This document shows, in pieces, positions 787 to 64,000 of a DNA stretch of 64,000 nucleotides. Made by a program: the position numbers and the translations under genes. Below the pieces are notes generated by a model, which was not told the DNA's origin, did no database searches, and saw only the letters and a list, made by a program, of their open reading frames with translations. Every line of letters begins with the position of its first letter. Position 1 is the stretch's first letter. This stretch comes from an uncultured Gammaproteobacteria bacterium (lineage in GTDB: Bacteria; Patescibacteriota; Patescibacteriia; UBA1558; S5-K13): positions 12,538 through 76,537 of the forward strand of contig CAZAOE010000001.1 of assembly GCA_964486685.1 (NCBI GenBank), in the 5' to 3' direction.

Positions 787-963
787 ATTTGCAATTACCA
801 ATTACCAATTATCATTTATCAATTTTCATTAAATTTTTAATTAAACAATTACCAATTATCAAATTCTGTCTTTTTGAAAATTGGTTATTAAATGTAAATT
901 TCAAATTGTTAATTGTTTATTTAATGAAAATTTTAAATTTCAAATTGAAAATTAAAAAAATTT
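787..963. repeat. ~170-bp intergenic element, copy A (second copy at 54076-54238)
   Basis: The two copies share atcaattaccaattatcaatttt ... attggttattaaatg ... aatgaaaatttaaaatttcaaattgaaaattaaa. The element ends 0-3 nt before the ATG of the downstream gene with no SD. ORF 789-971 lies inside it and is judged spurious. Confidence 0.6.
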
Positions 964-9124: not shown

Positions 9125-9189
9125 TTTGTGTAAATTTTAAATTTTAAGTTATAAATTTTAAATGAAAGGAAGGATTTGTGTAAATTTTA

Positions 9190-9266
9190 AATGAAAGGAA
9201 ATATTATATTAACCCCCACCATCTCCCCCTTACTAAGGGGGAGGGAGAGGGGGTGAATTTTAAATT
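9190..9266. repeat. 77-bp exact repeat (copy 1), containing a GC-rich palindromic hairpin
   Basis: aatgaaaggaaatattatattaacccccaccatctcccccttactaagggggagggagagggggtgaattttaaatt is identical to 29869-29945; core hairpin CTCCCCCTT act AAGGGGGAG. Confidence 0.7.
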
Positions 9267-9552
9267 AAAAATTGAAATTTGGCATGGATATTTCTCCATT
9301 CTTCATTTTTTCAGCCATTATTTTTTGAATTTTTTTAGTAGCATCATTAAATAATTCCGGAAGTGTATTTTCAATTGTTGAGTTTTCCATATCTTCAGGA
9401 ATTTTTATAGAGAGAACCGTTTGATTGCCATCCATTTTTAAAACAATTCCTTTTTTTTCTACTGCTACATTTTCTTGAGATAAGGCGTTTTGCATGTTTT
9501 TGGCCTGGGTCCTTAAATCTTTAATTTGATTTAGTTTTGAGAACATATTCAT
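9265..9552 (-). CDS. ybaB: Nucleoid-associated protein YbaB/EbfC
   Basis: 95-aa protein, MNMFSKLNQIKDLRTQAKNMQNALSQE..., with YbaB-like composition, located next to recR. Confidence 0.8.
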   Translation of the reverse strand: MNMFSKLNQIKDLRTQAKNMQNALSQENVAVEKKGIVLKMDGNQTVLSIKIPEDMENSTIENTLPELFNDATKKIQKIMAEKMKNGEISMPNFNF

Positions 9553-9811
9553 CCCGTTAGATATTATTTATTAAATGTTGATAAATTTAATCCCCTTCAG
9601 TTATATTAATTAGTCCCGTTTGTAAGATATAATTTTTATCTAACGGGATTCATATACAAATGTGTTAATACTAATATACTAATAATGCTAATAATACAAA
9701 TAGATTATACTAATAATACAAATGAATTCATATGATTGGTATATTACCCGCCATAATTTTATAAAAATTAAGGCGGGATTAGCATCACTTAATTCTCGTA
9801 TCATTAGTATT

Positions 9812-11209: not shown

Positions 11210-11400
11210 AGTATTCCCATTTTAACAGAAAAAATTTATCTTTCAAGTATTTTTATGGACAGTTTATCCACTAAGTATAAACACTTGATTTTTTATAATA
11301 TCTATGTTATATTTTTATGTATAAAAATACAACTATTTGTGTTTTTTTGTTATAATTTAGTAGTCAGCGGTTGGTAGTATTTATGTATTCAAAATGTATT

Positions 11401-11665
11401 AAAAATTAAATATAGTTAATTAAGCGCCGTTAGCTCCCCCCTTCGCCAAAGCTACGGAGGGCAGGCAGTTGGTACCCAACTTCGCTAACAAAGTATATTG
11501 TAATAATTTTATATAGATATTAAAAATTAAATATAGTTAATTAAGCGCCGTTAGCTCCCCCCTTCGCCAAAGCTACGGAGGGCAGGCAGTTGGTACCCAA
11601 CTTCGCTAACAAAGTATATTGTAATAATTTTATATAGATATTAAAAATTAAATATAGTTAATTAA
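11401..11665 (+). repeat. Tandem array of 121-bp units (2.2 copies), each carrying the tRNA-Lys promoter and first 13 nt of the tRNA
   Basis: Units start at 11401, 11522 and 11643. Each has aaaaattaaatatagttaattaaGCGCCGTTAGCTC followed by a 53-nt GC-rich insert (ccccccttcgccaaagctacggagggcaggcagttggtacccaacttcgctaac). The third unit continues into the intact tRNA. Confidence 0.8.
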
Positions 11666-11741
11666 GCGCCGTTAGCTCAGTTGGTAGAGCAGCAGCCTTT
11701 TAAGCTGATGGTCGCAGGTTCGAATCCTGCACGGCGTACCA
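11666..11741 (+). tRNA. tRNA-Lys (anticodon UUU), with encoded CCA
   Basis: GCGCCGT-TA-GCTC-AGTTGGT-AGAGC-A-GCAGC-CTTTTAA-GCTGA-TGGTC-GCAGG-TTCGAAT-CCTGC-ACGGCGT-A-CCA. Cloverleaf with perfect D and T stems; 7-nt anticodon loop C-U-UUU-A-A. Confidence 0.9.
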
Positions 11742-14216: not shown

Positions 14217-14430
14217 TGTTTTGTTTTAAGGTTTTAATAGTTTAATCATAGCGGATAAATAGATTTAGGTAAAATAGATTTTTTTGTTATAATGAGGTTA
14301 GTTTAGGGTTATCTGCCTACGCCAATACTTCTCCCTGCGCTAAAGCTTCTCCCTGCGCTAAAGCTTCGGGAGACAGGTTGGGAGACAGGTCGGGAGACAG
14401 GAAAGTTAAAAATAAAAAGTTTTTAAGAGT

Positions 14431-17130
14431 ATGAAAAAAAATTATCACAGTTTAGAAACCAAAAAAGTTTTAGATATTTTAAAATCAAACGAACAAGGAC
14501 TTAGCGAAGACGAAGCCCAGAAGAGATTAAAAAAATACGGACCTAATAAAATTATAGAGCAAAAAAAGATTTCTAAATTGTTAATATTTTTTAGCCAGTT
14601 TAATAATATTTTAATTTATATTTTATTATTGGCTTCTTTAATTTCTTTTATTTTTGGTGAACATATTGATGCCGCAGTTATTTTAGTTGCGGTATTTTTA
14701 AATACTATTATTGGTTATTTTCAAGAAAGCAGGGCGCAGAGTGATCTTTCTAAATTAAGGCATTATATTAAACAGCAGGTTTTTGTCCGGCGTAATAATC
14801 GACAATATTTAATCAATGTTGAAGAATTAGTTCCTGGAGATATTATTTTAGTTCAATCTGGGTCGCGCGTGGCGGCTGATGCCCGAGTTTTAGAGGCCAA
14901 TGAATTAAAAGCACATGAAGCGGCCTTGACCGGCGAATCAATTGCAGTTGATAAAAGTTTAGAAAAAGTAGCTGTGGGAGCAGTAACTAGTGACCGAACC
15001 AATATGTTATATATGGGTACAAGTATTGTGCGCGGTAATGCTGTTGCCGTAGTTACGGCCACTGCTATGGAGACAGAAATAGGAAAAATTGCTGGTTATA
15101 TTAGCGAAACTGAAGATGAACAAACTCCTTTACAAATTAGATTAAAAAAATTAGGAACGATTATTGGAATTTTTTCTTTAATTGCCTGTAGTTTAATTTT
15201 TATTTTAGGAATTGTTTCAGGTCGAAGTGCTTTAGAAATGTTTTTAATTAGCGTCGCCATTGCGGTTTCTTCTATTCCCGAGGGTTTGCCAGTAGCAATT
15301 ACGGTTATTTTAGCAATTGGCATGCAAAGGATTTTGAAAAAAAAGTCCTTGGTGCGTAGATTAGTAGCTGCGGAAACTTTGGGCTCAACTACGGTTATTT
15401 GTACAGATAAAACCGGTACTTTAACGGTTGGGCAAATGGCGGTTAGCAATATTATTTTAGACAATGAAATCGTTGATATTCTTTCTAAAAAAGACCAGAC
15501 CCTTTCTAACAGAGTTAAAGAAATTTTAAGGATTGGTTTTTTGTGCAATGATGCTTTTTTAGAAGAGCAAGATTTATCCCAAGAATTATTAAAAGAATTA
15601 AAAATGTCTGGTTCACCAACTGACCAGGCCTTGTTATCAGCTGGTTTGGATTTTGGCTTTTCTTTAGATGAAGAAAAAAAGAATTATCCGCAATTAGCTG
15701 AAGTTACCTTTGATAGTGCTAAAAAATACATGTTAAGTTTACATGAAAATAAAGCCGAACAAGTTAATGACCGGGTGATTTTTTGTAAGGGAGCTCCCGA
15801 AGTAATTTTAGAACATTGTAGTTTCATTAATACTAAAGACGGAGTTAAAAAATTAACCGACAAACAAAAACAAAAAATTATTGCTACGCAGAATAGTTTT
15901 ACCGCCAAGGGCTTGCGTTTATTAGCAGTTGCGGAAAGAAGGATGAGCAGTAAAATCTTAAAAGAAAATTTAGATGATAATTTTGAGCATTTAGTTTTAC
16001 TGGGTCTGATTACTTTAAAAGATCCTTTGCGTCAATCATCCAAAGAAACTATTCAAGTTTGTCTGCGGGCAGGCATTAGGCCAATCATTATTACTGGCGA
16101 CCATAAATTAACTGCCAAGGCCATTGCTTTAGAATTGGGTTTAAAGGCCAAGGAAGAGCATATTTTAAGTGGTGAAGATTTAGATAAATTAAATGATGAT
16201 GATTTAAGAGAAAAGGTGAAAACTGTTAATTTATATGTTCGAGTTAATCCGCATCATAAATTAAGAATTGTTCAGGCCTTGCAGGAAAATAATGAAGTAG
16301 TGGCTATGGCTGGAGATGGAATTAACGATGCTCCGGCAATCCAAATGGCCGATATTGGCATTGCTTTAGGTTCAGGAACAGACATTGCCAAAGAGACCGC
16401 GGAGATTGTGCTTTTAGAAAATAATTTTTCGGTGATTGTAGAGGCGGTTAAGCAGGGTCGAATAATTTTTGATAATTTGAAAAAAATTGTGGTCTATTTA
16501 TTGTCAGATTCTTTTTCGGGTATGCTTTTAATTTCCACGGCCATTATTATGGGTCTGCCCTTGCCTTTATTACCAGCGCAGATTTTATGGATTAATATTG
16601 TCAACGATGCTTTACCCAACTTTGCTTTGGCTTTTGAAAAAGGAGACAAAGATACTATGCAGAGAAAGCCCTTGCCTAAGCATGCTCCGATTTTAGATAA
16701 GGAAATGAAGTTTTTAATTTTTGTAATTGGGGTTTTTACAGATATTGGAATTATTGTTTTATTTTTATATTTATTAAAATCTGGTCATGATATTGAACAT
16801 GTCCGAACTTTTATGTTTGCCGCCCTAGGAATTGATTCTTTGATTTATGTTTATTCTTGTAAAAATTTACGCAGGTCAATTTGGAATTATAAATTGTTTG
16901 ATAATAAATTTTTAATATTAGGCACCTTAATTAGTTTTATGCTTTTAATGATAGGTCTTTATGTTCCTTTTTTCCAAACTGTTTTGCGTACAGTTCCTTT
17001 GGGGGCAGAGGGTTGGACCATTATGCTCGTTGTAGCTGTTTTTGAAGTAATTTCCATTGAGTTTGGGAAGTGGCTGTTTATACGTCGCAGTGGAGAGGTT
17101 AATGGTCAAAGGTCAAAGGTCAACGCTTAA
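14431..17130 (+). CDS. P-type cation-transporting ATPase (P2-type, Ca2+/cation)
   Basis: DKTGTLT phosphorylation motif, TGES, MAGDGINDAPA hinge and 10 TM segments; 899 aa. Confidence 0.9.
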   Translation: MKKNYHSLETKKVLDILKSNEQGLSEDEAQKRLKKYGPNKIIEQKKISKLLIFFSQFNNILIYILLLASLISFIFGEHIDAAVILVAVFLNTIIGYFQESRAQSDLSKLRHYIKQQVFVRRNNRQYLINVEELVPGDIILVQSGSRVAADARVLEANELKAHEAALTGESIAVDKSLEKVAVGAVTSDRTNMLYMGTSIVRGNAVAVVTATAMETEIGKIAGYISETEDEQTPLQIRLKKLGTIIGIFSLIACSLIFILGIVSGRSALEMFLISVAIAVSSIPEGLPVAITVILAIGMQRILKKKSLVRRLVAAETLGSTTVICTDKTGTLTVGQMAVSNIILDNEIVDILSKKDQTLSNRVKEILRIGFLCNDAFLEEQDLSQELLKELKMSGSPTDQALLSAGLDFGFSLDEEKKNYPQLAEVTFDSAKKYMLSLHENKAEQVNDRVIFCKGAPEVILEHCSFINTKDGVKKLTDKQKQKIIATQNSFTAKGLRLLAVAERRMSSKILKENLDDNFEHLVLLGLITLKDPLRQSSKETIQVCLRAGIRPIIITGDHKLTAKAIALELGLKAKEEHILSGEDLDKLNDDDLREKVKTVNLYVRVNPHHKLRIVQALQENNEVVAMAGDGINDAPAIQMADIGIALGSGTDIAKETAEIVLLENNFSVIVEAVKQGRIIFDNLKKIVVYLLSDSFSGMLLISTAIIMGLPLPLLPAQILWINIVNDALPNFALAFEKGDKDTMQRKPLPKHAPILDKEMKFLIFVIGVFTDIGIIVLFLYLLKSGHDIEHVRTFMFAALGIDSLIYVYSCKNLRRSIWNYKLFDNKFLILGTLISFMLLMIGLYVPFFQTVLRTVPLGAEGWTIMLVVAVFEVISIEFGKWLFIRRSGEVNGQRSKVNA

Positions 17131-17157
17131 GGATTAAGGTGTTTTATAGTTATTATT

Positions 17158-17186
17158 AATCTCGTTTGTTAGCGGGATTTTTTTGT
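17158..17186 (+). terminator. Rho-independent terminator after the P-type ATPase
   Basis: AATCTCG tttgttag CGGGATT followed by TTTTTTT. Confidence 0.5.
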
Positions 17187-17389
17187 TTATCCCTCACCAT
17201 TTTTACTAAAATAGTGAAGGATTTACAAAACAAGCTAAAAGTTATATTCTTTAAATATAATAATGTTAATTAAATAAGATTAAATAAAAAAATATGGATT
17301 TGCGGGAGTTTAAGAAATAATTTATATGCGAAGAATTAGAAATTACAGAAGATTATGGAAGAATTTTTTCTTTTATAGATTTTTCTAAT

Positions 17390-29458: not shown

Positions 29459-29620
29459 GCGATACCAATATAGCGATACCAATATACGAATTTACCCTTG
29501 AACCAGAAATCGGTTCAGGGTGAATACGAATTATACTAATATACCAATCATTAGTATTTAATTAGTATATTAGTATCACAATATTAGTATTATTAGTATA
29601 GAAAGGAAGGTAAAAATAAA

Positions 29621-29839: not shown

Positions 29840-29868
29840 GAAATAATTTTGAATTACGAATGAAAGGA

Positions 29869-29945
29869 AATATTATATTAACCCCCACCATCTCCCCCTT
29901 ACTAAGGGGGAGGGAGAGGGGGTGAATTTTAAATTTAAAATTAAT
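29869..29945. repeat. 77-bp exact repeat (copy 2) with GC-rich hairpin
   Basis: Identical to 9190-9266; lies 30 nt after rpsU. Confidence 0.7.
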
Positions 29946-29956
29946 AATTCAAAGAA

Positions 29957-30502: not shown

Positions 30503-32188
30503 ATGTTATTAAAAGCAAAAATAAAAAATAGTTTTAACTTTTCTAAAATAACTGTTGTCAGTTTAGTTTTAATGTCAGCGGTTATTTTTTTATTACCCAG
30601 CATTTCTCAAGCCCAAATTTTAGTTCCCCAAGTAGATAATTTAAGTACGGGCAGTATTGAAGAGATAGCTGGGACTGTTATTCAATTGGTTTTGGGCTTA
30701 TTGGGCTTAATTGCTTTAGTTATTGTTTTATATGCCGGTTTTATGTGGATGACTTCTGGAGGAAATGAAGAAAAAATATCTAAGGCCAAAAAAATCTTAA
30801 GTGCTGGAGTAATTGGACTTTTAATTATTTTGGCCTCTTATGCTATCACCAGCTTTATTTTACAAGTAGCTCAAGGAGGAGGTGGCGGTGGTGGTGGACA
30901 CGGAGATTATACGGAAGGATTGGGTGGATTTGGCGGAGGAGCATTAGGCGGAGGGGTAATTGAATATCATTATCCGGCTCGAGATGCTACTAATATTCCG
31001 CGTAATACTTTAATTATGATTAGTTTTAAAGTTAGGGTTGCTACTAGTAGTGTAATAGCAGAATCTTTTACTGATAATCCGGGGCTTGGGCTTTGTAATA
31101 ATTATACAGAAAACAACACTAATGGTAATGAATGTGGAATTTTAAGTAGCGATATAGAGATAATTGATTATGGTTCTGAAAATATTCCCTTGGATCCAGA
31201 AGATGTAGTTGCTGTTTTAACTGCAGATGGAAAAAATATTTTACTTAGGCCCATAGAGTATTTAGGAAACGGAGAAAATTCTACTGATACAATTGTGTAT
31301 TTGGGAGCAGGAATGGTAACTGCTGATGGTAAGGACTTATTTGGCGGTTTAGAAAATGGATATGCTTGGCAATTTGAAGTCAGTACTTTTTTAGATCTTA
31401 CGCCTCCAACTGTTAGTTTTGTCTGGCCAGGGCAAGACCAGATAGTGGCACGTAATGCTATTATTCAAGTTAATTTTTCGGAACCCATAAATATTTTAAG
31501 CGTAGATGGAAATATTATTGTTACAAATTTACCAGATGAAATTTTAGCAGGAGAATTAAAAATTAGTAATCAGTATAAAACAATAGAATTTTTAGCTGCT
31601 GGAGACTGCGGAGGAGCAAGGGTTAATTCCTGCGGTGAAGAAATATTTTGTTTACCAGCTTTGGCAAATATTGAAACTTTAGTTGAAGCCGGAGAAGCCG
31701 ACGATCCTTTAAGTGGAATTAGTGATGCGGCTGGTAATTTATTGGCAGAAGATTATATTTGGGATTTTAATACTACTAATAATGTTTATACTATTTCTCC
31801 AATAATAGAATCTACTGGTCCAGTTAATAATGAAGAAAATGTTCAGCTGAATCCAAATATTTGGGCTTTATTTGATTTAACAGATGTCAATATTTCGCCT
31901 AGTTCTTTAAATACAGATAGTTTTTATATTTATGATGCTGATAGTTGTGTTGATTTAGGTCAAGACGATCCAGATTTAGAAGCTGGGCACAAAGAAAATA
32001 TTGCTGGAGATAATTGTTTCCCAGCTTATTCCGTTTACATGAGCGATGACAATAAGAAGTGTAATATTCAAATATATAATGCCTTAGAAAATAATATTCT
32101 TTATTATCCGCGAATTACTTCTGAAATTAAGGATTCTTATGGAAATTGTTTTAATCCAGCTGAGGGTCCAGGCGGGAGCGAGCGGTAA
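30503..32188 (+). CDS. Surface protein with VirB2/TrbC-like pilin-type N-terminal anchor domain, poly-Gly linker and Ig-like (Big) extracellular domains
   Basis: Signal peptide, then two hydrophobic helices separated by a short charged loop (VIQLVLGLLGLIALVIVLYAGFMWM - TSGGNEEKISKAKKIL - SAGVIGLLIILASYAITSFIL), which is VirB2/TrbC topology. GGGGGGGG linker follows. TPPTVSFVWPGQDQIV...VNFSEPIN is an SbsA/Big_5-like Ig domain. Confidence 0.55.
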   Translation: MLLKAKIKNSFNFSKITVVSLVLMSAVIFLLPSISQAQILVPQVDNLSTGSIEEIAGTVIQLVLGLLGLIALVIVLYAGFMWMTSGGNEEKISKAKKILSAGVIGLLIILASYAITSFILQVAQGGGGGGGGHGDYTEGLGGFGGGALGGGVIEYHYPARDATNIPRNTLIMISFKVRVATSSVIAESFTDNPGLGLCNNYTENNTNGNECGILSSDIEIIDYGSENIPLDPEDVVAVLTADGKNILLRPIEYLGNGENSTDTIVYLGAGMVTADGKDLFGGLENGYAWQFEVSTFLDLTPPTVSFVWPGQDQIVARNAIIQVNFSEPINILSVDGNIIVTNLPDEILAGELKISNQYKTIEFLAAGDCGGARVNSCGEEIFCLPALANIETLVEAGEADDPLSGISDAAGNLLAEDYIWDFNTTNNVYTISPIIESTGPVNNEENVQLNPNIWALFDLTDVNISPSSLNTDSFYIYDADSCVDLGQDDPDLEAGHKENIAGDNCFPAYSVYMSDDNKKCNIQIYNALENNILYYPRITSEIKDSYGNCFNPAEGPGGSER

Positions 32189-32204
32189 TAGTTTAATTGT
32201 TAAA

Positions 32205-32301
32205 CCCCTCACCTTTTGATTAAGAATATATTATTTTATTTTCTAATATTTTTTAAAAATAATAATGCTTAATATAATTTATTTTAGAAAAGGTGATGGG
32301 G
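32205..32301. mobile_element. MITE-like non-coding element (97 bp) with 13-bp terminal inverted repeats and a 10-bp flanking direct repeat
   Basis: TIRs cccctcacctttt ... aaaaggtgatgggg. Flanks aattgttaaa (32195-32204) and aattgttaaa (32304-32313). A second copy in inverse orientation lies at 60322-60419. Confidence 0.55.
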
Positions 32302-32340
32302 TAAATTGTTAAAATTAAGAGTAACTTGTAACTAATTATC

Positions 32341-35300
32341 ATGCTTAAGAAAAGAAAAAATTTATTTTTAATCTTTATACTATTTATAGTAATAGGTTTT
32401 GTATTACCAAATATTTCATCTGCTCAAATTTTAGTTCCACAAGTAGATAATCTTAGTACAGGTAGCATTGAAGAGATAGCTGGGACTGTTATTCAATTGG
32501 TTTTGGGCTTATTGGGCTTAATTGCTTTAGTTATTGTTTTATATGCCGGTTTTATGTGGATGACTTCTGGAGGAAATGAAGAAAAAATATCTAAGGCCAA
32601 AAAAATCTTAAGTGCCGGAGTAATTGGTCTGATTATTATTTTGGCCTCTTATGCTATAACCAGCTTTATTTTACAAGCAGCCCAAGGAGGAGGTGGCGGT
32701 GGAGGCGGTGGAGGTCAAGGATGTACTCCTAATGAATGTACGGGTTGTTATCGGTGTGATCTTGATGGTAATTCTCATTATGACGAGACTTGTCCTACCT
32801 GTGGTTCTGGTGGGGAAACATATAATTTTAGTGTAATTACTAATAGTCCTCAAGGAGAAAATATTTCTTTGTGCAGTTTAATTCAAGTTAAATTTAATAA
32901 TATTGTTGATGAAACTACAGTTAATTCTCAAAATTTTGGTTTATATGACTGTGGAGCCAATTCTTGTGCTGGCAATTTAATCAACAATTTAACGCCAGAT
33001 GGACAGTTTATAATAGAAGAAGATATAATTCAGTTTATTTTAGGAGAGGATTATGAGCAGAAGCATTATTATGCAGTTAATATCATACATGATGGGATTG
33101 CAGATGAAGACGGAGAGGCCTTGTTAGTAGATTATTATTGGGAGTTTAAAACTGGGAATGAAACAGATACAGAGCCACCTACTGTTATTTCAGTATTTCC
33201 TAAAGATGATCAAGAAGATGTTTGTTTAACTTCATATATTACCGCCGAATTTTCAGAAGATATGGATATGCTTTCTTTAAGAAATGCCTCGTCCTTTTAT
33301 TTATATGAAGACATTGACACTCTATCAGATATAGATTTTTTTCATCAGGTTTATAATGACTCCTTAATTTTATATCCTAACTCTAACTATGAAGCAGTTG
33401 AAGATTACTTCCCTTTATTAAATGGCAGTATTATTAAAGATACTTGTGGTAATTATTTAGATGGTGATGGTGATGGCACTCATCAAGATTCAGATATTGA
33501 TAATTATCCTTCAGAAGGTCCTAGTGAAGAATGGAATTTTATTACCGGAGATAATTTATATTGTACGCCAGAAATTACTGGAGTTGAAAATAATCAAACC
33601 TATTATGACGCCACAGAGAATTTAATTATTTCTGGTCATTATTTAGGGAATAATCCAGTTTTAATTTTTGATAATTCCATAGTCGTAAACCAAACAAGTA
33701 ATTTATGTATGGGAAATGAATATTGGTATGATGGCGCTTGTGTTATTTGGGCCTGGACAGAAGAAGAAATAAAAGTAGCTATACCAGTGACTGGGGGCGA
33801 TAATAACGGAGTTAGGGCCGGAGAAAATTTAGTGGAAGTGCAAACTGATGAAGGCAATGTTAGCGCTAATTTTGATTTATTAAGTCCGCGTATTAATGCT
33901 TTATATCCAGACCAAGGTGGAGTTGGACAATTTATCAGTATTTGGGGAATAAATTTTAAAGAAGATGAAAACATTAATTTAAGTGCTTCCGAGGTTTATT
34001 TTCGTTTTAATCAAGATGAATACATAGAAGCAGATTTACCTTGTGGCCAAGATGCCTGGGAAGATGAACAAATTATTATTTCTGCTCCTAATAATTTGAA
34101 TATAAATAATGTTTATGCTGTGCAAATTAAAAAAGTTTATGATGACGGTACAGAGCGCTGGAGTAATTTAGCGGATTTTTATTTTAATGATGAAGAAGCT
34201 GGACCAGGTCTATGCTCTATTGATAAGGATGAGCTTTTTTTTGAAGACGAATTTAATTTAAATGGAATTAAATTAGGGGACGATATCTTTTATAATAGAG
34301 AAGTAATTTTAGGCGATGATTATAGTTCCATACAAGCTGATGTCTTAGAGTGGACCGGAAACGATGGTGATGGACACAATACAGATGTTGAGGCCATAAC
34401 TCCCTTAATGGGTTCGGCTACAGGAGTAGGCGTTAGAGTAATGGTAGAGGAAACAGCAGGTGAACAAAGATTTAGTAATTATTTAAATGTAGAGATATTG
34501 GCAGATGAATCAACAAATTTTTATATAAATTATACTTCTCCAACCTCAACTCCAATAGGGGGCTATGTGACGATTTATGGTTCTGGGTTTGGAAATAGCC
34601 AAGATGATAAGATGGTTAAGTTTAATATAGGCGGAGATGATTGGACAGATGGAGATTTTGATTTTCCAGATGAATGTTCTACGGCTTTTTGGAGTGATGA
34701 ACAAGTAATTGTTAAAGTACCGGAAACATTTAATGGTTTTGGGTTTCCATTTTCTTCAAAAATAAAAATTATAGATTCAGCTAATTATTTAGAAACTAAT
34801 GCAGTAAATTTTGAAGTTAATAATGAAGGACTTGCTCCTTGTATTTGTAGTGTAAACCCTGAATTTGGAACAAAAGAAAATGAAATTGAAATTGCTGGTG
34901 AGTATTTTGAAGATCCCGATGATGTAGATAACTTTTACTTTAACACAATTTTTGATAACAGCGGAAATTTTATATCTGGAGATTATGCGGATTTTATTAT
35001 AGATTCAGATGAGTTAATGTTTGTAACAGTAACATCAACGCAAACTGGTTTAATTTCAGCTCGCAATATTAATGGCTATGGCAATACTTGGAATTTTGAA
35101 TATATTGAAGCAGGAGCAGACATAACAGGTGTTTGGGATTTTTATGGCTGGAATTTTACTACTTGTGCAGATTGTGAAAATCCAAGAGTGAGTAGAAAAA
35201 TATGTAATTCTAATAACGGTATATCTTTTCCTTCGCCAGAACCAGGAAGTACAGATGTACCACAAGACACTAAACAGGTTTATGCGGCTTTTGAATATCC

Positions 35301-48046: not shown

Positions 48047-48203
48047 ATCCCCACACCTATAATTGAAAAATTATAGTATAAGGGAAAATATATTTAAAAT
48101 TTAAATATCAAACCCAATTTATTAAACCTAATTTACCCCCCACCTTTTAAGAAAGCAAAAAGGTGAGGGATGAAAAAATAATTAGGTGTGGAGATAAGTT
48201 ATC

Positions 48204-50433: not shown

Positions 50434-50965
50434 AATTTTTTGATTATTAATTAAATAAAAAACTATTAGTTATTGGGAAATTAAAAAAGGTTTCCCAAAC
50501 CAGCTGACAAGTCCTTGCGAAAATGCCACTACACCCTTTCGAGCATAGACCTATCCTACAAGTACTGGTTGGAAAACCATTTTTATGTAGGATAGGATTT
50601 TTAACCATACCTTATGAAAACATAGGGGTTAGGTCAATCTAATCGTTATTTTAATATTAACTCAAAAAATTTTAAAAGTAAAATAAATATATGCCCCTTT
50701 TTCCTAACTAGGAGGAGAAGGGGGTTGGTTTACTAAAAGCGAAATTTATGCGAAAATATATATATAATAAGTTTTTAATTTTCAATTTTTTAATTATCAA
50801 TCCTAAAGACGTTAGGCACCTTTCAGATATTAAACGTTTTTCCAAATTTTATTATTTACTTAGGTTGTATAATTTAAAAAAAGATTAGAGTTATAATTAA
50901 GGACTGGGGGACAGAGAGGTTAATTGGTAATTTGAAATTGTAAATTTTTATTTTTAAATTTAGAT

Positions 50966-54032: not shown

Positions 54033-54075
54033 TATTTTGGTAGAAATAAAATTATTAAGTTATTTTAATAATATG

Positions 54076-54238
54076 GGATTATCAATTACCAATTATCAAT
54101 TTTCAATTCTCATTTAATTTTCAATAATTAAATTTACAATAGTTTTTATGAAATAAATAGCTTAGCAAAAATTGATTATTGTAATATTGGTTATTAAATG
54201 AAAATTTAAAATTTCAAATTGAAAATTAAATAATATAT
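54076..54238. repeat. ~170-bp intergenic element, copy B
   Basis: Homologous to 787-963; ends at the glyS ATG. Confidence 0.6.
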
Positions 54239-56215: not shown

Positions 56216-57559
56216 ATGTCTAAGATAAAAACAATTTATGCTTGTTCTAAATGTGGTGCTCAGACCGCAAAATGGGAAGGGCGTTGTCCAGAATGTGGAG
56301 CTTGGGGTAGTTTAGAAAAAGAAAGCATTGCAGATTCAGACAAAAAAGACAAAGAAAGTCAACTTAAAGATTTAAAAGTTGATTTTATTGATTTAGATAA
56401 GCTTAAGAAAACCGATACCCAAAGATTAAAAACTGGCTTTGATTCTTTTAATGTTGCGATTAATGGTGGAATTGTCCGGGCTTCTTTAGTTTTAATTGGT
56501 GGTAATCCCGGAATTGGTAAATCAACTTTAATTTCACAAATAGTTTCTAATAATTTTAAAACTTTATATGTTTCTGGAGAAGAAACTGCTTCTTCAGTTA
56601 AATCTCGAATAGATAGATTAGGAGCTAAGGTTGGAGATTTAAAGTTTTTAGCAGAAAATAATTTAGAGAAAATATTAGCCGGAGCCATGAAAGCTAAACC
56701 TGATTTATTAATTATTGATTCTATTCAAACCATGTATACTTCCGAAATTGATTCAGATCCCGGAGGTGTTTCTCAAGTGCGGGCTTGTACAGTGAAATTA
56801 ATGGAGATTGCTCGGAAATTAGACATGGCAGTTTTAATAGCCAGTCACGTTAATAAAGCTGGAGATTTAGCTGGCCCAAAGGCCTTAGAGCATTTAGTTG
56901 ATTGTGTTATTTCTCTAGAGGGCGATAGGCTCAATAGATATAGAATGTTAAGGGTTATTAAAAATCGTTATGGAGCAACAGATAATTCCGAGGTTTTGGA
57001 AATGACCAGCAAGGGTTTTAAAAAAGTTTTAAATCCATCGAACATTTATCTTTCTAATACTAGTGTGGATAAAGGAACCGTTATTACTTCAATTGTTGAT
57101 GGAAATCAAGTTTTAATGTTAGAATTACAGGCCTTGGTTAATAAAACAAATTTTGGTTATCCAAAAAGAACTACTTCTGGTTTTGACCAAAAGCGCTTAG
57201 AATTATTATTAGCGGTTTTATCTAAACAAGCCAGTTTAAAATTAGGAGCTTATGATGTGTATATTAATTTAACTGGTGGTTTTAAAGTCAAAGACCGTTC
57301 TTTAGATTTAGCAGTTTGTTTAGCGATTATGTCGGCTTATCATGATAAAGTAGTTAAGGAGAGTACTATTGCTTTTGGAGAGGTTGGTTTAAGTGGCGAG
57401 GTTCGTTCTATACCAAAAACCAAAGAAAGAATTAAAGAAGCAATTGCCTTAGGATTTAAAAATATTATTATTCCTAAATTCGACAAGAAGGTTGATATTA
57501 AAGGAGTTAATTTAATTGAAGTTGAAAAAATTAAGGATTTGGAAAAATATTTGGGATAG
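56216..57559 (+). CDS. radA: DNA repair protein RadA/Sms
   Basis: C4 zinc finger CSKCGAQTAKWEGRCPECGAWGS, RecA-like Walker A GGNPGIGKSTL, KNRYG motif and a Lon-protease-like C-terminal domain. Confidence 0.9.
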   Translation: MSKIKTIYACSKCGAQTAKWEGRCPECGAWGSLEKESIADSDKKDKESQLKDLKVDFIDLDKLKKTDTQRLKTGFDSFNVAINGGIVRASLVLIGGNPGIGKSTLISQIVSNNFKTLYVSGEETASSVKSRIDRLGAKVGDLKFLAENNLEKILAGAMKAKPDLLIIDSIQTMYTSEIDSDPGGVSQVRACTVKLMEIARKLDMAVLIASHVNKAGDLAGPKALEHLVDCVISLEGDRLNRYRMLRVIKNRYGATDNSEVLEMTSKGFKKVLNPSNIYLSNTSVDKGTVITSIVDGNQVLMLELQALVNKTNFGYPKRTTSGFDQKRLELLLAVLSKQASLKLGAYDVYINLTGGFKVKDRSLDLAVCLAIMSAYHDKVVKESTIAFGEVGLSGEVRSIPKTKERIKEAIALGFKNIIIPKFDKKVDIKGVNLIEVEKIKDLEKYLG

Positions 57560-57624
57560 GAATAACGAATTAAGAATTAAGAACTAAGAATTAAAAATTA
57601 AGGATAAAATTAAAATTACTAAAA

Positions 57625-59157: not shown

Positions 59158-60280
59158 TATTCTGCATTTTTATCAACCATTTTGGCAGGATAAAAATACT
59201 TTAGATAAAGTAATAAGAGAAAGCTATTCCTTTCTTTTAAATTTATTAGAAGAATTTCCAACATTTAAAATTACAATAAATTTTTCTGGATCTCTTTTAG
59301 AATTATTAAATGATAGAAAATATTGTAATATTATCAAAAAATTTAATCATTTTGTAAAAAATGGACAAGTAGAGCTAATGGGTAGTGCTATGTATCATCC
59401 CATATTAGCAAAACTTCCAGAAGATGAAATTATTAGACAAATAAAATTGAATGAAAAGATTATAAATAAATATTTTGGTAAAAATAATAAAATTAATGGA
59501 TTTTTTATCCCGGAACTCGCTTATCATCCCAAAGTGGGTAAAATTATAAAAAACCTTGGTTATAAATGGGTAATTCTTGATAGTATATGCGCTAAAGAAA
59601 GAATTTCATATAATACTAAATATATTGATAAAAATTCTAAACTTGATATTATTTTTAGGAATAGAATAATCTCTAAAACTTTTGCTCCAGAATTTTTTTC
59701 TTCTCAAGTGAAATTAAATAAAATCTATATAACTGCAAGTGATGCTGAATTATACGGTCATTGGCATCATGATTGGCAGCAACATTCTCGAAAAGTATTA
59801 AATAATAATTTAATAAAAACAATACATGCTAGTGAATGGCTTGAGATTATAAAAAAGAGTAAACAGATAATTTTAAGGTCGGGCAATTGGGAATCAACAT
59901 TAAAACAAATAAAAAATAAAAATTATTATTTTGTCTGGGATAATTCTGAAAATAAAATTCAAAAAAATTTATGGATTCTATGTAATTTAGCATATAAATC
60001 ATTAAAACAAAATAAAAAAGATTCTAACTTTGATTGGTGTAGAAAGTCAATGGATAAAGCATGGTCAAGCTGTTTTTGGTGGTGGGCTAGTGGGGAAAAA
60101 TTAAGCACTTTTTCTCCTATAGCCTGGCATCCGGATGTTATTATTAGAGGATTAGACATAATGATAAATGTTGTCAGATCTCTTCAGAAGCTAGATAAGA
60201 ACACAAGATTAAAAGCAGAAAGAATTTATGCTAATACCGTTTATTTAATTTGGAAAAAACATTGGACTCAATATCAATAG
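59141..60280 (+). CDS. Glycoside hydrolase family 57-like protein
   Basis: N-terminal ILHFYQPFWQ (GH57 region 1, HxHQP-like) and SDAELYGHWHHDW (GH57 region 4). Confidence 0.6.
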   Translation: MGNWINILHFYQPFWQDKNTLDKVIRESYSFLLNLLEEFPTFKITINFSGSLLELLNDRKYCNIIKKFNHFVKNGQVELMGSAMYHPILAKLPEDEIIRQIKLNEKIINKYFGKNNKINGFFIPELAYHPKVGKIIKNLGYKWVILDSICAKERISYNTKYIDKNSKLDIIFRNRIISKTFAPEFFSSQVKLNKIYITASDAELYGHWHHDWQQHSRKVLNNNLIKTIHASEWLEIIKKSKQIILRSGNWESTLKQIKNKNYYFVWDNSENKIQKNLWILCNLAYKSLKQNKKDSNFDWCRKSMDKAWSSCFWWWASGEKLSTFSPIAWHPDVIIRGLDIMINVVRSLQKLDKNTRLKAERIYANTVYLIWKKHWTQYQ

Positions 60281-60321
60281 AACACAAGAAGATAAAAACA
60301 CTCAAACATTAAAGCAATAAA

Positions 60322-60419
60322 CCCCTCACCTTTTTAAAATAAATTATGCTATGAATTATTATTCTTACTTAATATATTTAAAAATGAAACATTTTATTCT
60401 TAATCAAAAGGTGATGGGG
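60322..60419. mobile_element. MITE-like element (98 bp), inverse-orientation copy of 32205-32301
   Basis: TIRs cccctcacctttt ... aaaaggtgatgggg. The interior is ~70% identical to the reverse complement of the other copy. Flanked by aaagcaa direct repeats and by longer ~35-bp direct repeats (60282-60320 / 60437-60470). Confidence 0.55.
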
Positions 60420-60541
60420 TAAAGCAAGAAATCAATAAAACACAAGAATATTAAAACATTAAAGCATAAAAACAATATAACAATTTACCCCATCAACCCA
60501 GCTTAGCTGGGTGAGGGATTTAATAATTAAACAATTATCCA

Positions 60542-62775: not shown

Positions 62776-62804
62776 AATTTACCTTATCGACCCAGCTTAG
62801 CTGG

Positions 62805-63779
62805 GTGAGGGGTTTAATAACACTTAATATCAAATATAATAAAATTATGCTACAAAAATCAGAACTTAGAAAAGATTATATTCAAAACAAATATGTTATT
62901 ATCGCTCCCAAAAGGTCTCAACGTCCTAATATTCATAAAATTAAAAAATTAGGAACAAGAAAAAATAAAGAAGACCAAAAATGTCCCTTTTGTCCTATAA
63001 ATGTTAATAAAGTAAAAGATTTGTTTACAATTGGTTCTAAAAACGATTGGCAGGTTAAAGTAATAAAAAATATATTTCCAGCAGTAAGTTTGGATAATGA
63101 CAAGGCCTACGGACAACAAGAAATAATTATTGACACTCCAGATCATTCATTAGAAATTGAAAATTTACCTATTAAGCAGATTGTAAAAATTTTTGATGCC
63201 TATTCTGAGAGAACAAGAATTATTAGTAAAAATAAAAAAATCAGCTACATTATAATATTTAAAAACAATGGCGGAATAGCCGGGGCTTCTTTAGAACACT
63301 CTCATTCTCAAATTTTTGCAACAAACTTTATCCCCCCGCACTTAGCTGATAAATCACAAAAACAGCAAGAGTATAAATTAAAATATGGAACCTGTATTTA
63401 TTGTGACGTTATTAAGAAAGAATCAAATGGGCCAAGAAAAATATACCAAGATAAAAATATTATTGCATTTTGCCCATATGCTTCTATGTATAATTATGAG
63501 GCCTGGATTATTCCAAAAAGACACTTAGACAACATTACATTATTAAATAAACCCGAAAAAGAATCTTTTGCAAAGGCATTAAAATTAATTTTATCAAAAA
63601 TAAATTTACTAAATTTACCATATAATTTCTATTTTCATCAGGTAATACACGATGAAGACCAACATCTATATATGAAAATAGTTCCTAGAGGAAGCGTATG
63701 GGCTGGATTGGAAGTAGGTTCAGGTGTTGTTATTAACCCAATAGACCCTGATCAGGCTGCTAAATTTTATAGGTCATAA
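62805..63779 (+). CDS. GalT-like HIT-superfamily nucleotidyltransferase (galactose-1-P uridylyltransferase / ADP-glucose phosphorylase family)
   Basis: CPFCP zinc site and H-S-H-S-Q active-site motif (LEHSHSQIFA); 324 aa. Confidence 0.65.
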   Translation: MRGLITLNIKYNKIMLQKSELRKDYIQNKYVIIAPKRSQRPNIHKIKKLGTRKNKEDQKCPFCPINVNKVKDLFTIGSKNDWQVKVIKNIFPAVSLDNDKAYGQQEIIIDTPDHSLEIENLPIKQIVKIFDAYSERTRIISKNKKISYIIIFKNNGGIAGASLEHSHSQIFATNFIPPHLADKSQKQQEYKLKYGTCIYCDVIKKESNGPRKIYQDKNIIAFCPYASMYNYEAWIIPKRHLDNITLLNKPEKESFAKALKLILSKINLLNLPYNFYFHQVIHDEDQHLYMKIVPRGSVWAGLEVGSGVVINPIDPDQAAKFYRS

Positions 63780-63785
63780 AAATGA

Positions 63786-63947
63786 AGAGACGAAGCAGTA
63801 GCTCTAGGTTTTAAAAATATTATCATTCCTAAGTTTGATTTACCCCCACAACTTAGAGGTAAGTGTGGGGGTAAAAAAGTAAATGTTAAAGGAGTTAATT
63901 TAATTGAAGTGGAGAAGATTAAGGATTTGAAGAAATATTTGGGGTAA
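63786..63947 (+). pseudogene. Duplicated 3'-terminal fragment of radA (53 codons), carrying an in-frame 36-nt palindromic insertion
   Basis: Translates RDEAVALGFKNIIIPKFD-LPPQLRGKCGGK-KVNVKGVNLIEVEKIKDLKKYLG*, against the radA C-terminus AIALGFKNIIIPKFDKKVDIKGVNLIEVEKIKDLEKYLG*. It is preceded directly by an in-frame TGA. The insert ttacccccacaacttagaggtaagtgtgggggtaaa (63840-63875) is a hairpin. Confidence 0.6.
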
Positions 63948-64000
63948 GTATTAAGTATTATGTATTAAGAACGTAAAGTAGCAAAGCTACTAACGTTCTT

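What the first reader, a model, noticed from the sequence alone, without database searches (positions are those of the whole stretch)
32195..32313. MITE-like ~97-bp element with 13-bp terminal inverted repeats and flanking direct repeats, present twice in opposite orientations
Copy 1 (32205-32301) and copy 2 (60322-60419) share TIRs cccctcacctttt/aaaaggtgatgggg and a ~70%-identical AT-rich interior. Copy 1 is flanked by a perfect 10-bp direct repeat aattgttaaa. Copy 2 is flanked by aaagcaa and by an additional ~35-bp direct repeat (60282-60320 / 60437-60470). Both sit just 3' of + strand genes. No transposase is encoded. This fits a non-autonomous transposable element, although a long terminator or REP-like hairpin family is also possible. 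Related half-site motifs (cccc[t]cacctttt / aaaaggtgaggg) recur at 48141-48170 and 17185-17215.
Basis: seen in the sequence. Interest (0 to 1): 0.55.

Follow-up and report, generated by a model that had tools for sequence, protein, structure and literature searches.

The report
Dispersed hairpin repeat of CPR bacteria
The two ~97-bp copies are real members of an apparently undescribed family of small hairpin-forming repeats scattered through many ultra-small (CPR/Patescibacteria) bacterial genomes and bracketed by a repeated four-base TTTA-type word. The family behaves like a miniature mobile element, but no enzyme that moves it was found.

Summary
Copy 1 (32205-32301) and copy 2 (60322-60419) share the arms CCCCTCACCTTTT / AAAAGGTGA(T)GGGG. 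Their interiors are 79% identical, but only in opposite orientation.

They are not an isolated pair. The same arms occur in exact form in 73 metagenome stretches and 73 genome stretches, almost all from Patescibacteria MAGs (33 exact short hairpins in one MAG). The sequence between the arms ranges from 3 to about 80 nt and is unrelated between lineages.

The flanking repeat that generalises is 4 nt, not 10 bp. An exact TTTA/TAAA, TTAA or TTGA/TCAA direct repeat abuts the arms in 58 of 121 unique copies. The 10-bp repeat occurs only at copy 1 and comes from local 8-nt tandem words.

Orientation relative to genes is random. Congeneric relatives lack copy 2, with a 20-bp spacer in one. A paralogous "empty site" carries a single TTTA. 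The window encodes no transposase, recombinase or HUH protein, and no Rfam family or canonical terminator matches.

Verdict: this is a new REP/MITE-like dispersed palindromic repeat family. It is probably inserted as a folded hairpin at a TNNA tetranucleotide. The enzyme is unknown. Interest is moderate.

The parts
32205..32301 (.). Copy 1, core element. Left arm 32205-32217, AT-rich 70-nt interior 32218-32287, right arm 32288-32301 with an extrahelical T at 32297.
   Evidence: Sequence. Fold -25.6 kcal/mol, z -3.7. 90% identical to L029 and to L074 2389-2512, and 82-83% identical to L037, L038 and L048.
32201..32204 (.). Left flanking tetranucleotide TAAA of copy 1 (TTTA on the - strand).
32302..32305 (.). 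Right flanking tetranucleotide TAAA of copy 1, a direct repeat of 32201-32204.
32187..32313 (.). Full stretch of copy 1 that is homologous to copies in related lake genomes. It is the core plus the 8-nt-word flanks that produce the apparent 10-bp repeat AATTGTTAAA (32195-32204 / 32304-32313).
   Evidence: blastn boundaries are consistently 32187-32313. Alignment A3. Octamer arrays also occur without the hairpin.
60322..60419 (.). Copy 2, core element. Left arm 60322-60334, 71-nt interior 60335-60405 inverted relative to copy 1, right arm 60406-60419 with an extrahelical T at 60415.
   Evidence: Identical in four other assemblies of the same organism. Absent from the syntenic site in L152 and L156.
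60318..60321 (.). Left flanking TAAA of copy 2.
60420..60423 (.). Right flanking TAAA of copy 2.
60275..60321 (+). Unit X, the end of the upstream gene plus its 3' region. It is repeated at 60433-60479.
   Evidence: the repeat finder family D12, 81% over 47 nt.
60433..60479 (+). Unit X', the second copy of X. The layout is therefore X-copy 2-X'-hairpin 60488-60517.
60484..60522 (+). Short relative in the opposite polarity to copy 2: TTTA-CCCCATCAACCCAGC-tta-GCTGGGTGAGGG-A-TTTA. It is embedded in the same kind of 8-nt words.
   Evidence: (-18.1 kcal/mol, z -3.9).
62778..62816 (+). Paralogue of the 60484-60522 hairpin: TTTA-CCTTATCGACCCAGC-tta-GCTGGGTGAGGGG-TTTA. It starts 3 nt after a stop codon.
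48132..48173 (+). Short-loop family member: TTTA-CCCCCCACCTTTT-aagaaagc-AAAAAGGTGAGGG-ATGA. It is nested inside a longer inverted pair, CCCCACACCTA (48049-48059) / TAGGTGTGGAG.
   Evidence: -15.1 kcal/mol, z -4.3.
17186..17225 (+). Diverged short member: TTTA-T-CCCTCACCATTTTT...AAAATAGTGAAGG-A-TTTA.
   Evidence: -9.9 kcal/mol, z -3.2.
29491..29524 (+). Hairpin with a different stem but the same frame: TTTA-CCCTTGAACC-agaaatc-GGTTCAGGG-TGAA.
   Evidence: The region 29476-29599 recurs in L051 and L068.

Best explanation
Copies 1 and 2 are two old, diverged insertions of a non-autonomous, hairpin-forming dispersed repeat family that is widespread but patchy in CPR/Patescibacteria.

The unit has three parts:
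- a 13-14-nt arm, (A)CCCCTCACCTTTT;
- a loop or interior of any length and sequence (3 to more than 80 nt; 70-71 nt here);
- the complementary arm.

The unit sits at a TNNA tetranucleotide (mostly TTTA, also TTAA and TTGA) that is then present on both sides.

Shown here:
- The family exists and is multi-copy within genomes at unrelated sites.
- The arms are invariant while interiors drift.
- The 4-nt flanking repeat is direct, and its two sides co-vary.
- One paralogous empty site carries a single TTTA.
- Polarity is random relative to genes.
- The element is absent from close relatives.
- Loops flip relative to the flanks.

Inferred:
- Units as short as 32 nt have spread to unrelated sites, and two 13-bp ends 6 nt apart cannot be synapsed on duplex DNA. 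The element is therefore most likely moved in trans as a folded single-strand hairpin. Candidate enzymes are a REP/RAYT- or IS200/IS605-type HUH enzyme, or a recombinase that uses folded hairpins. My estimate is about 0.4 for hairpin-based mobilisation against about 0.2 for a classical DDE transposase.
- The interior of copy 2 was later flipped by a hairpin-mediated 'minute inversion'. This left the outer stem, the bulge and the flanks unchanged.
- In place, the copies add a -24 to -26 kcal/mol stem to the mRNA 17 and 42 nt after the stop codons. That stem may protect the 3' ends, as REP elements do. This last point is inference only.
For: Family and distribution:
- Exact arm pairs were found in 73 metagenome stretches with a 50-80 nt gap.
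- Exact arm pairs were found in 73 genome stretches with a 2-32 nt gap, almost all from Patescibacteria MAGs. Counts are 33 hairpins on 29 stretches of MAG JAHJSK01, 9 in a Kuenenbacteria MAG, 5 in a Wolfebacteria MAG, and others in Falkow-, Saccharibacteria, Roizman-, Yanofsky-, Nealson- and Buchananbacteria.
- None were found in 2.9 M viral contigs.
- In 1.12 Mb of loci, 198 left arms and 187 right arms are nearly all paired within 120 nt.

Homologous copies at other loci:
- W 32187-32313 matches L029 (90%), L074 2389-2512 (90%), L037, L038, L048, L051 and others with different neighbouring genes.
- L038 and L048 are identical copies on one 130-kb contig.

Arms against interior:
- In 18 lake-lineage copies the 12 stem pairs are essentially invariant, and no inner structure is conserved.

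Flanks:
- An exact 4-nt direct repeat occurs in 58 of 121 unique copies. Longer repeats are essentially absent.
- After removing copies with related flanks, 19 of 46 have an exact direct repeat and 0 have an inverted-only repeat. TTGA pairs with TTGA, TTAA with TTAA and TTTA with TTTA.
- Paralogous filled and empty sites: GATTAATTTA-[hairpin]-TTTACTCAAATA against GATTAATTTA-CTCAAATA in L145 4765.

Short mobile units:
- The loop 'tcagaa' occurs between identical arms at 4 sites with unrelated flanks in one Kuenenbacteria MAG.

Polarity and position:
- Polarity relative to genes is 20 against 16.
- Copies lie nearer the upstream stop codon in 46 of 69 cases.

Absence in relatives:
- The intergenic spacer is 20 bp in L156 and has unrelated content in L152.
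- There are no arms in 35 kb of these congeners, against 6-7 in the window.

Loop flips:
- Copy 2 against 17 other lake copies.
- L107 against L110.
Against: - No mobilising enzyme was found. No ORF lies between distant arms. No multi-copy transposase-like ORF occurs in 1.1 Mb of loci. Pfam finds no transposase, integrase or HUH domain in the window.
- No strain-level presence/absence polymorphism was seen at either window site. Four other assemblies are identical at copy 2.
- In the lake lineage the flank polarity is fixed relative to the bulge (9 of 9 informative copies). The flanking words are shared between copies, so those copies may have spread as a larger unit or into a very specific target.
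- Some family members have non-identical flanks that recur, such as TTTA...TGAA.
- Polarity that is random relative to genes argues weakly against lagging-strand-specific IS200/IS605-type insertion.
- Perfect arm conservation across CPR classes could instead reflect a host factor.
- Both collection scans returned exactly 73 stretches, so the lists may be truncated and the claim of patchiness is provisional.
Confidence: 0.7

Rival explanations
1. It is a classical MITE. A DDE transposase encoded elsewhere binds the 13-bp terminal inverted repeats on duplex DNA, cuts the target with a 4-bp stagger at TNNA, and leaves a 4-bp target-site duplication. The short hairpins are internally deleted relics.
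For: - The 4-nt direct repeats co-vary left and right among copies with unrelated flanks, and nothing longer repeats.
- A paralogous empty site carries one TTTA.
- Orientation relative to genes is random.
- There is a weak purine...pyrimidine symmetry outside the tetranucleotide.
Against: - Units of 32-40 nt with the same loop occur at unrelated sites. Two 13-bp ends separated by 3-12 bp cannot be synapsed on duplex DNA; this is an inference from established transposase mechanics.
- No longer element with the same ends enclosing an ORF was seen in 1.1 Mb.
- Flank polarity is fixed relative to the bulge in 9 of 9 lake copies.
- Flanks such as TTTA...TGAA recur without being identical.
Confidence: 0.2
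2. It is not mobile. It is a host-functional hairpin, such as an mRNA 3'-end stabiliser, an unconventional terminator or a protein-binding palindrome, and selection keeps its sequence constant.
For: - The arms are invariant while interiors drift.
- Copies are intergenic and lie nearer the upstream stop codon in 46 of 69 cases.
- The stems are stable.
Against: - Copies share identical loops and interiors at unrelated sites.
- The distribution is patchy, and congeners at 84% protein identity lack the element.
- 13 copies lie between divergent genes.
- No U-tract and no terminator call on either strand.
- The polarity given by the flanks and bulge is random relative to transcription.
Confidence: 0.1
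3. It is an invertible DNA switch. The 13-bp inverted repeats are crossover sites for a site-specific recombinase that flips the 70-bp interior.
For: - The interior of copy 2 is inverted relative to the arms, bulge and flanks when compared with copy 1 and 16 other copies.
- Loop flips also occur in short members.
Against: - Only 1 of 18 lake copies is flipped, and five assemblies of the same locus all show one orientation.
- No recombinase is encoded in the window.
- Promoter-like matches do not exceed chance.
- Flips also occur in 6-7-nt loops, where recombinase synapsis is impossible.
Confidence: 0.03
4. It is a small structured RNA gene or a cis-regulatory RNA.
For: Folding is significant relative to shuffles.
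Against: - No Rfam match at gathering threshold or at E up to 1.
- The consensus structure is only the invariant terminal stem, with no covariation and no conserved inner helix.
- Interiors are unrelated between lineages.
- Orientation relative to genes is random.
Confidence: 0.03

Closest known systems
REP elements and REPINs mobilised by RAYT (HUH/Y1) transposases (Bertels & Rainey, PMC3116915, PMC3337134)
   Same: - Short extragenic palindromes present in tens of copies per genome.
- Hairpin-forming units of about 90 bp.
- Conserved ends with spacers that vary in length and sequence, and no two spacers alike (PMC3337134).
- Two orientation types occur.
- Copies occur in inverted doublets (60322-60419 with 60484-60522; hpA with hpB).
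   Different: - Each REP is itself an imperfect palindrome, and a REPIN is a doublet of these. Here the arms are not self-complementary and pair only with each other.
- The flanking word is TTTA-like, not the GTAG recalled for REPs (from my own knowledge).
- No RAYT was found.
- The same arms are shared across CPR classes, whereas REPIN/RAYT systems are described as lineage-specific and vertically inherited.
Bacterial MITEs such as Correia/NEMIS elements of Neisseria (from my own knowledge)
   Same: - About 100-bp non-coding elements with terminal inverted repeats.
- A short target duplication.
- Intergenic location.
- Terminal repeats that pair in transcripts.
   Different: - Correia elements have 26-bp repeats and a TA duplication, and vary in length only modestly.
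- Here functional-looking units go down to about 32 nt.
- The interior is freely replaceable and in some relatives is a tRNA gene.
- No parent IS is known.
IS200/IS605-family elements and their non-autonomous derivatives (PATEs) (from my own knowledge)
   Same: - Hairpin recognition.
- A bulged base in the stem.
- Insertion next to a specific tetra- or pentanucleotide, with a related short word at the other end.
- Strand polarity without long inverted ends.
   Different: - Those elements carry a separate subterminal hairpin at each end, and insertion is biased to one replication strand.
- Here a single stem is formed by the two ends.
- Polarity looks random relative to genes.
- No Y1 gene was detected (a weak test).
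Folded single-strand recombination sites: integron attC sites and the CTX-phage attP hairpin used by XerCD (from my own knowledge)
   Same: - An imperfect hairpin with conserved outer boxes.
- A centre that varies in length.
- Extrahelical bases that give polarity.
- A short core duplicated on both sides after integration.
   Different: - There are no cassette arrays and no integrase.
- The core and box sequences are unrelated.
- Copies are scattered singly among housekeeping genes.
Hairpin-associated 'minute inversions' of chloroplast non-coding DNA (from my own knowledge)
   Same: The loop between short inverted repeats flips while the stem and flanks stay. This is seen in copy 2 against copy 1, and in L107 against L110.
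   Different: This explains only the orientation difference. It does not explain the origin or spread of the family.

Membership tests
MITE (non-autonomous DDE-type element) | Terminal inverted repeats | tested here: met
   13-14-nt arms, invariant in 18 lake copies and exact in 146 collection stretches.
MITE (non-autonomous DDE-type element) | Target-site duplication of fixed length | tested here: inconclusive
A 4-nt direct repeat is exact in 58 of 121 copies, and in 19 of 46 after removing related flanks. One paralogous empty site carries a single TTTA. Against this, the flanks are fixed within subfamilies and some recur as TTTA...TGAA.
MITE (non-autonomous DDE-type element) | Multiple dispersed copies at non-orthologous sites, no coding capacity | tested here: met
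   The elements are 31-105 nt long.
MITE (non-autonomous DDE-type element) | Autonomous IS with the same ends and a transposase | tested here: not met
   None was found in 1.1 Mb of fetched loci or in the window.
REP/REPIN-RAYT system | Short extragenic imperfect palindromes in many copies per genome | tested here: met
   33 exact short hairpins in one MAG. 92 of 116 copies lie outside ORFs under crude ORF calls.
REP/REPIN-RAYT system | REPIN = two inverted REPs, each itself a palindrome, separated by a spacer | tested here: not met
   The arm CCCCTCACCTTTT is not self-complementary; it pairs only with the opposite arm. Inverted doublets of whole hairpins do occur.
REP/REPIN-RAYT system | A single-copy RAYT (Y1/HUH) gene flanked by the repeats | tested here: inconclusive
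There is no Y1_Tnp domain in the window. Whole host genomes were not available.
IS200/IS605-derived element (PATE) | Insertion 3' of a fixed tetra- or pentanucleotide without duplication; separate subterminal hairpins at each end | tested here: inconclusive
   TTTA on both sides is compatible with this model. However, there is only one hairpin, formed by the two ends, and no strand bias relative to genes.
Intrinsic (Rho-independent) terminator | G+C-rich stem followed directly by a U-tract, oriented with the upstream gene | tested here: not met
   No terminator-like site on either strand at either copy. On the + strand the stem is followed by UAAA. Family polarity is random relative to genes.
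Invertible promoter switch | Inverted repeats around a promoter-bearing segment, a nearby recombinase, and both orientations in a population | tested here: not met
   No recombinase. Promoter-like hits are at chance level. Five assemblies show one orientation.
Known structured RNA family (Rfam 15) | Match to a covariance model | tested here: not met

The most novel reading that the evidence does not exclude
The arms define a CPR-wide 'hairpin cassette' system of a kind not yet described. A trans-acting enzyme, neither a RAYT nor a known IS transposase, would recognise the folded CCCCTCACCTTTT stem with its bulge. It would insert or exchange hairpin units at TNNA sites. These sites include positions inside other repeats, where different hairpins occupy the same slot, and positions around or inside tRNA genes (L015, L036, L040; window 11397-11738). 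Horizontal spread between CPR classes would keep the arms identical.
Probability: 0.2. Interest if true: 0.7.

Novelty: new member of a known kind. Interest (0 to 1): 0.5.

Why it matters
CPR/Patescibacteria genomes are small and are usually regarded as poor in repeats. This family has a 13-nt stem that is identical across several CPR classes, and it reaches about 30 or more copies per ~1-Mb genome in some MAGs.

Possible uses and consequences:
- It gives a handle on horizontal exchange and on genome dynamics in organisms that cannot be cultured alone.
- It offers a marker for strain typing.
- It explains assembly breaks, since several copies sit at contig ends.
- It is a candidate substrate for finding a new hairpin-specific DNA enzyme.

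For annotation of this window, it explains two otherwise puzzling intergenic regions. It also shows that the neighbouring short hairpins belong to the same system.

Tried and rejected
1. 10-bp target duplication. Rejected as a family feature.
2. Half-sites. These are complete short hairpins.
3. Terminator or promoter function with polarity. There are no terminator calls and promoter-like hits are at chance. Polarity relative to genes is 20:16. The idea that the right-flank TTGAC/TTTAC is a -35 box was dropped for the same reason.
4. Anti-Shine-Dalgarno mimicry of the arm (shared UCACCU). The downstream start codons are 40-120 nt away and have no Shine-Dalgarno sequence. I treated this as coincidence.
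5. DNA-uptake sequence. The arms are almost never single, the density is far too low, and the distribution is patchy.
6. Known RNA families. None match.
7. Structured RNA in the interior. There is no conserved helix and no covariation.
8. Phage carriage. No hits in IMG/VR.
9. Autonomous element. The distant arm pairs in L078 and L133 enclose ordinary genes. The multi-copy ORFs are AAA/DUF4143-like ATPases, pilus genes, DnaA/DnaN and toxin-antitoxin genes, not transposases.
10. Selection on the arms at orthologous sites (L010/L035/L046/L030/L028/L063). These proved to be paralogous copies of a larger composite repeat with different neighbouring genes, so I withdrew the argument.
11. Copy 1 empty site through HisRS relatives. 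The close relatives sit on contigs of 2.5 kb, too short to reach the site.
12. Literature. No paper on such repeats in CPR was found.
13. Organism name. Exact look-up returned no names.

Full report
**Context**

The window is about 30% G+C. It matches JGI lake-metagenome contigs exactly, for example Ga0268282_1000046 of 78 kb, with other assemblies up to 137 kb.

Its genes are ordinary housekeeping genes of a Patescibacteria/CPR bacterium. They include HisRS, GlyRS, FtsA/FtsZ, NrdR, ClpB, RadA, DnaB, RecR, GH57 and glycosyltransferases, and large pilin-like surface proteins. Rfam finds a LOOT RNA and one tRNA. No ORF in the window has a transposase, integrase or HUH domain.

**The observation**

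Copy 1 is CCCCTCACCTTTT (32205-32217), 70 nt of AT-rich interior, then AAAAGGTGATGGGG (32288-32301). Copy 2 is the same arms at 60322-60334 and 60406-60419 around 71 nt.

- The right arm carries one extra T (32297, 60415), so the stem has a one-base bulge.
- The arm with up to 2 mismatches occurs 8 times against 1.4 expected.
- The terminal stems give -24 to -26 kcal/mol with z about -3.7.
- The interiors are homologous only when one is reverse-complemented: 56 matches over 71 aligned positions, z = 7.0, against z = 0.4 in the same orientation.
- The bulge and the flanking TAAA...TAAA are in the same orientation in both copies. What differs between the copies is therefore an inversion of the loop only.
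- The motifs at 48136-48169 and 17190-17221 are complete short hairpins with both arms, not half-sites.

**A large family**

An exact-match scan of metagenome contigs used CCCC-N0-1-TCACCTTTT, a 50-80 nt gap, then AAAAGGTGA. It returned 73 stretches, mostly from contigs of 26-46% G+C and from lakes, groundwater and sediments.

- The arms are identical across these stretches, but the interiors are unrelated between lineages.
- Some interiors contain tandem short hairpins with the same arms (L006, L013, L031, L065, L069, L072, L077).
- Three interiors contain a whole tRNA gene (L015, L036, L040).

A scan of one genome per species for the short form (2-32 nt gap) also returned 73 stretches. Nearly all are Patescibacteria MAGs:

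| MAG or group | Count |
|---|---|
| JAHJSK01 | 33 hairpins on 29 stretches |
| Kuenenbacteria MAG | 9 |
| Wolfebacteria MAG | 5 |
| Falkowbacteria MAG | 4 |
| Patescibacteria MAG STA_35 (JAQTMG01) | 4 |
| Saccharibacteria MAGs | five MAGs |
| Roizman-, Yanofsky-, Nealson-, Buchananbacteria | also present |

A few non-CPR hits have inverted, A-tract/T-tract flanks and look like ordinary terminators. Neither form occurs in IMG/VR viral contigs. Both lists ended at exactly 73, so they may be truncated.

**The flanks**

I examined 121 unique family members.

- The four bases abutting the arms are an exact direct repeat in 58 copies: TTTA/TTTA, its reverse TAAA/TAAA, TTAA/TTAA, and TTGA/TTGA or TCAA/TCAA.
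- A 5-nt repeat occurs twice.
- After removing copies with related outer flanks, 19 of 46 still have an exact direct repeat. None has an inverted repeat that is not also direct. The two sides co-vary.

In the lake lineage the copies lie inside arrays of 8-nt words, (AAATTGTT)n, often followed by the inverted (AACAATTT)n. These arrays also exist without a hairpin. Removing the element together with one TAAA from copy 1 leaves AATTGTTA-AATTGTTA. Doing the same for copy 2 leaves AAAGCAAT-AAAGCAAG-AAATCAAT. This accounts for the longer apparent duplications.

**Evidence for dispersal**

- blastn shows that W 32187-32313 recurs next to different genes: at 90% in L029 and in L074 2389-2512, and at 76-83% in L037, L038, L048, L051 and L074 6305-6427 (alignment A3).
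- L038 and L048 are identical copies on one 130-kb contig.
- In one Kuenenbacteria MAG, the 32-nt unit with loop 'tcagaa' sits at four sites with unrelated flanks.
- In the JAHJSK01-type genome, a ~200-nt composite repeat carries the hairpin in a fixed slot, GGGATGATTAATTTA-[hairpin]-TTTACTCAAACA. Other copies of the composite carry a different hairpin there (CCCTGTTAAAT...ATTTAACAGGG). One copy carries none and has a single TTTA (L145 4765). That copy is a paralogous empty site.
- At the syntenic site of copy 2, two congeners with 84% identical GH57 proteins have a 20-bp spacer (L156) or 206 bp of unrelated sequence (L152). Their 35 kb contain no arms, against 6-7 in the window.
- Four other assemblies of the window's own organism are identical at copy 2. 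I therefore saw no strain-level polymorphism.

**What it is not**

- Rfam has no match at gathering threshold or at E up to 1.
- Eighteen lake-lineage copies share only the terminal stem. It has 12 pairs, essentially invariant, with no compensatory change and no conserved inner helix. Invariant pairs show that the sequence is conserved; they do not show a structured RNA.
- No terminator-like site is called on either strand, and promoter-like matches are at chance.
- The polarity defined by the flanks is random relative to neighbouring genes, 20 against 16. This argues against any orientation-dependent RNA or promoter role.
- Copies do lie nearer the upstream stop codon than the next start codon: 46 of 69, medians 59 and 101 nt. 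Thirteen lie between divergent genes. The ORF calls used here are crude.

**Mechanism**

The family behaves as a non-autonomous dispersed palindromic repeat. Insertion leaves a TNNA tetranucleotide on both sides. Three enzymologies would give that result:

1. A DDE transposase with a 4-bp staggered cut.
2. An HUH/Y1 enzyme that inserts 3' of TTTA an element that ends in TTTA.
3. A recombinase that exchanges strands within a 4-nt core carried by a folded hairpin.

I favour a hairpin-based route, at about 0.4. The reasons are that units of 32 nt have spread, the stem carries a bulge at a fixed position, and flank polarity is fixed relative to that bulge in 9 of 9 informative lake copies. A classical DDE MITE remains possible at about 0.2, because the left-right co-variation of the tetranucleotide among unrelated sites is the textbook signature of a target duplication.

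I found no enzyme. The enzyme is the main gap.

The flip of copy 2's interior, and of 6-7-nt loops elsewhere, is best explained by hairpin-mediated minute inversion. It does not look like a programmed switch.

Any host effect is inferred, not shown. An example would be protection of the 3' ends of the 561-aa gene and GH57 mRNAs by the stem 17 and 42 nt after their stop codons.

**Comparison with known systems**

REP/REPIN-RAYT systems are the closest analogy in behaviour. They have conserved ends, spacers that vary in length and sequence, hairpin formation, two orientation types and inverted doublets (PMC3337134). Two defining features fail or are untested: the arms are not themselves palindromes, and no RAYT was found.

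For MITE membership, the terminal repeats and the dispersed copy number are met. The target duplication is suggestive but not conclusive. No parent IS was found.

Four literature searches found no description of such repeats in CPR bacteria.

I file it as a new member of the broad class of small palindromic dispersed repeats, of moderate interest. There is a minority possibility, about 0.2, that it marks a hairpin-cassette mechanism not yet described.

Noticed in passing
window 11397-11738: There are two perfect 121-bp tandem units and the start of a third. Each unit starts with 27 nt of upstream sequence plus the first 13 nt of the tRNA gene (GCGCCGTTAGCTC). This is followed by a C-rich/G-rich insert (CCCCCTTCGCC...GGAGGG) and AGTTGGTA. 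Only the last unit continues into the intact tRNA (11666-11738). The arrangement looks like repeated disrupted 5' tRNA fragments upstream of the working gene.
   Followed up: partly
L040 4300-4460; L036 395-530; L015 7243-7347: In two different organisms an intact tRNA-Glu bracketed by the CCCCTCACCTTTT / AAAAGGTGAGGGG arms sits inside a second tRNA-Glu. The outer tRNA is split at the same point and lacks 12 nt of its D and anticodon stems. In L015 a tRNA-Pro is bracketed by the arms. I have no explanation.
   Followed up: partly
window 17101-17140, 29545-29610, 57553-57584, 63941-63972, 786-960, 54070-54231, 60282-60321: Many intergenic regions just after stop codons consist of short 7-8-nt tandem words that differ from site to site, such as GGTCAAA x3, GAATTAA, GTATTAA, TTAGTAT, AATTACC and AAAGCAAT. 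In relatives, (AAATTGTT)n / (AACAATTT)n arrays flank the hairpin copies and also occur alone (L029, L034).
   Followed up: partly
window 814-955 and 54081-54232; 9183-9280 and 29852-29949; 29476-29599; 9545-9655; 14344-14392: At least five further intergenic repeat families are present, several shared with related lake contigs (L009, L019, L051, L062, L068). One is a 98-nt repeat at 93% identity built around the hairpin CCCCCACCATCTCCCCC...GGGGGAGGGAGAGGGGGTG. Another is the CCCGTTAGA...TCTAACGGG pair, which is also in L152 5423-5516.
   Followed up: partly
L156 61-99; L068, L074, L034; JAHJSK01-type loci such as L070 786, L106 70, L107 1890: A second hairpin family with a cross-lineage distribution is CCCTGTTAAAT...ATTTAACAGGG. 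It is framed by TTTA...TGAA and occupies the same slot as the CCCCTCACC hairpin in a ~200-nt composite repeat.
   Followed up: partly
L006 8777-10200, L088 2100-3396, L120 47-1402, L107 4257-5561: The ~200-nt composite repeat (...GGGATGATTAATTTA-hairpin-...-CCCTCACCTTTTTCCC..GGGAAAAAGGTGAGGG-ATAAATACTTTCCGATA) lies about 100-125 nt from four mutually divergent ~375-410-aa P-loop ATPase genes. From their sequences these look like AAA_14/DUF4143 proteins; I did not run Pfam on them. The association may be chance.
   Followed up: partly
window 30586-30885 and 32397-32696: The 561-aa and 2938-aa pilin-like/Big_5 surface-protein genes that flank copy 1 share their first ~300 nt at 92% identity. L029 carries four further short paralogues next to its copy of the element.
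   Followed up: no
window 50506-50635 (-): A LOOT RNA (Rfam RF03000, 72 bits) lies in the divergent region upstream of the 127-aa/ClpB operon.
   Followed up: no
L152 11141-11346: The syntenic GH57 / 188-aa-gene spacer of a congener holds an unrelated, G+C-richer ~170-bp insert with internal repeats (ttcgacgggttcgacgg, cgagaccttcgatcgaggtc). This shows that the spacer is a hot spot for different insertions.
   Followed up: no
window 48049-48196: A longer inverted pair, CCCCACACCTA / TAGGTGTGGAG, about 125 nt apart, encloses the short hairpin at 48136-48169. It is a nested arrangement downstream of nrdR.
   Followed up: no
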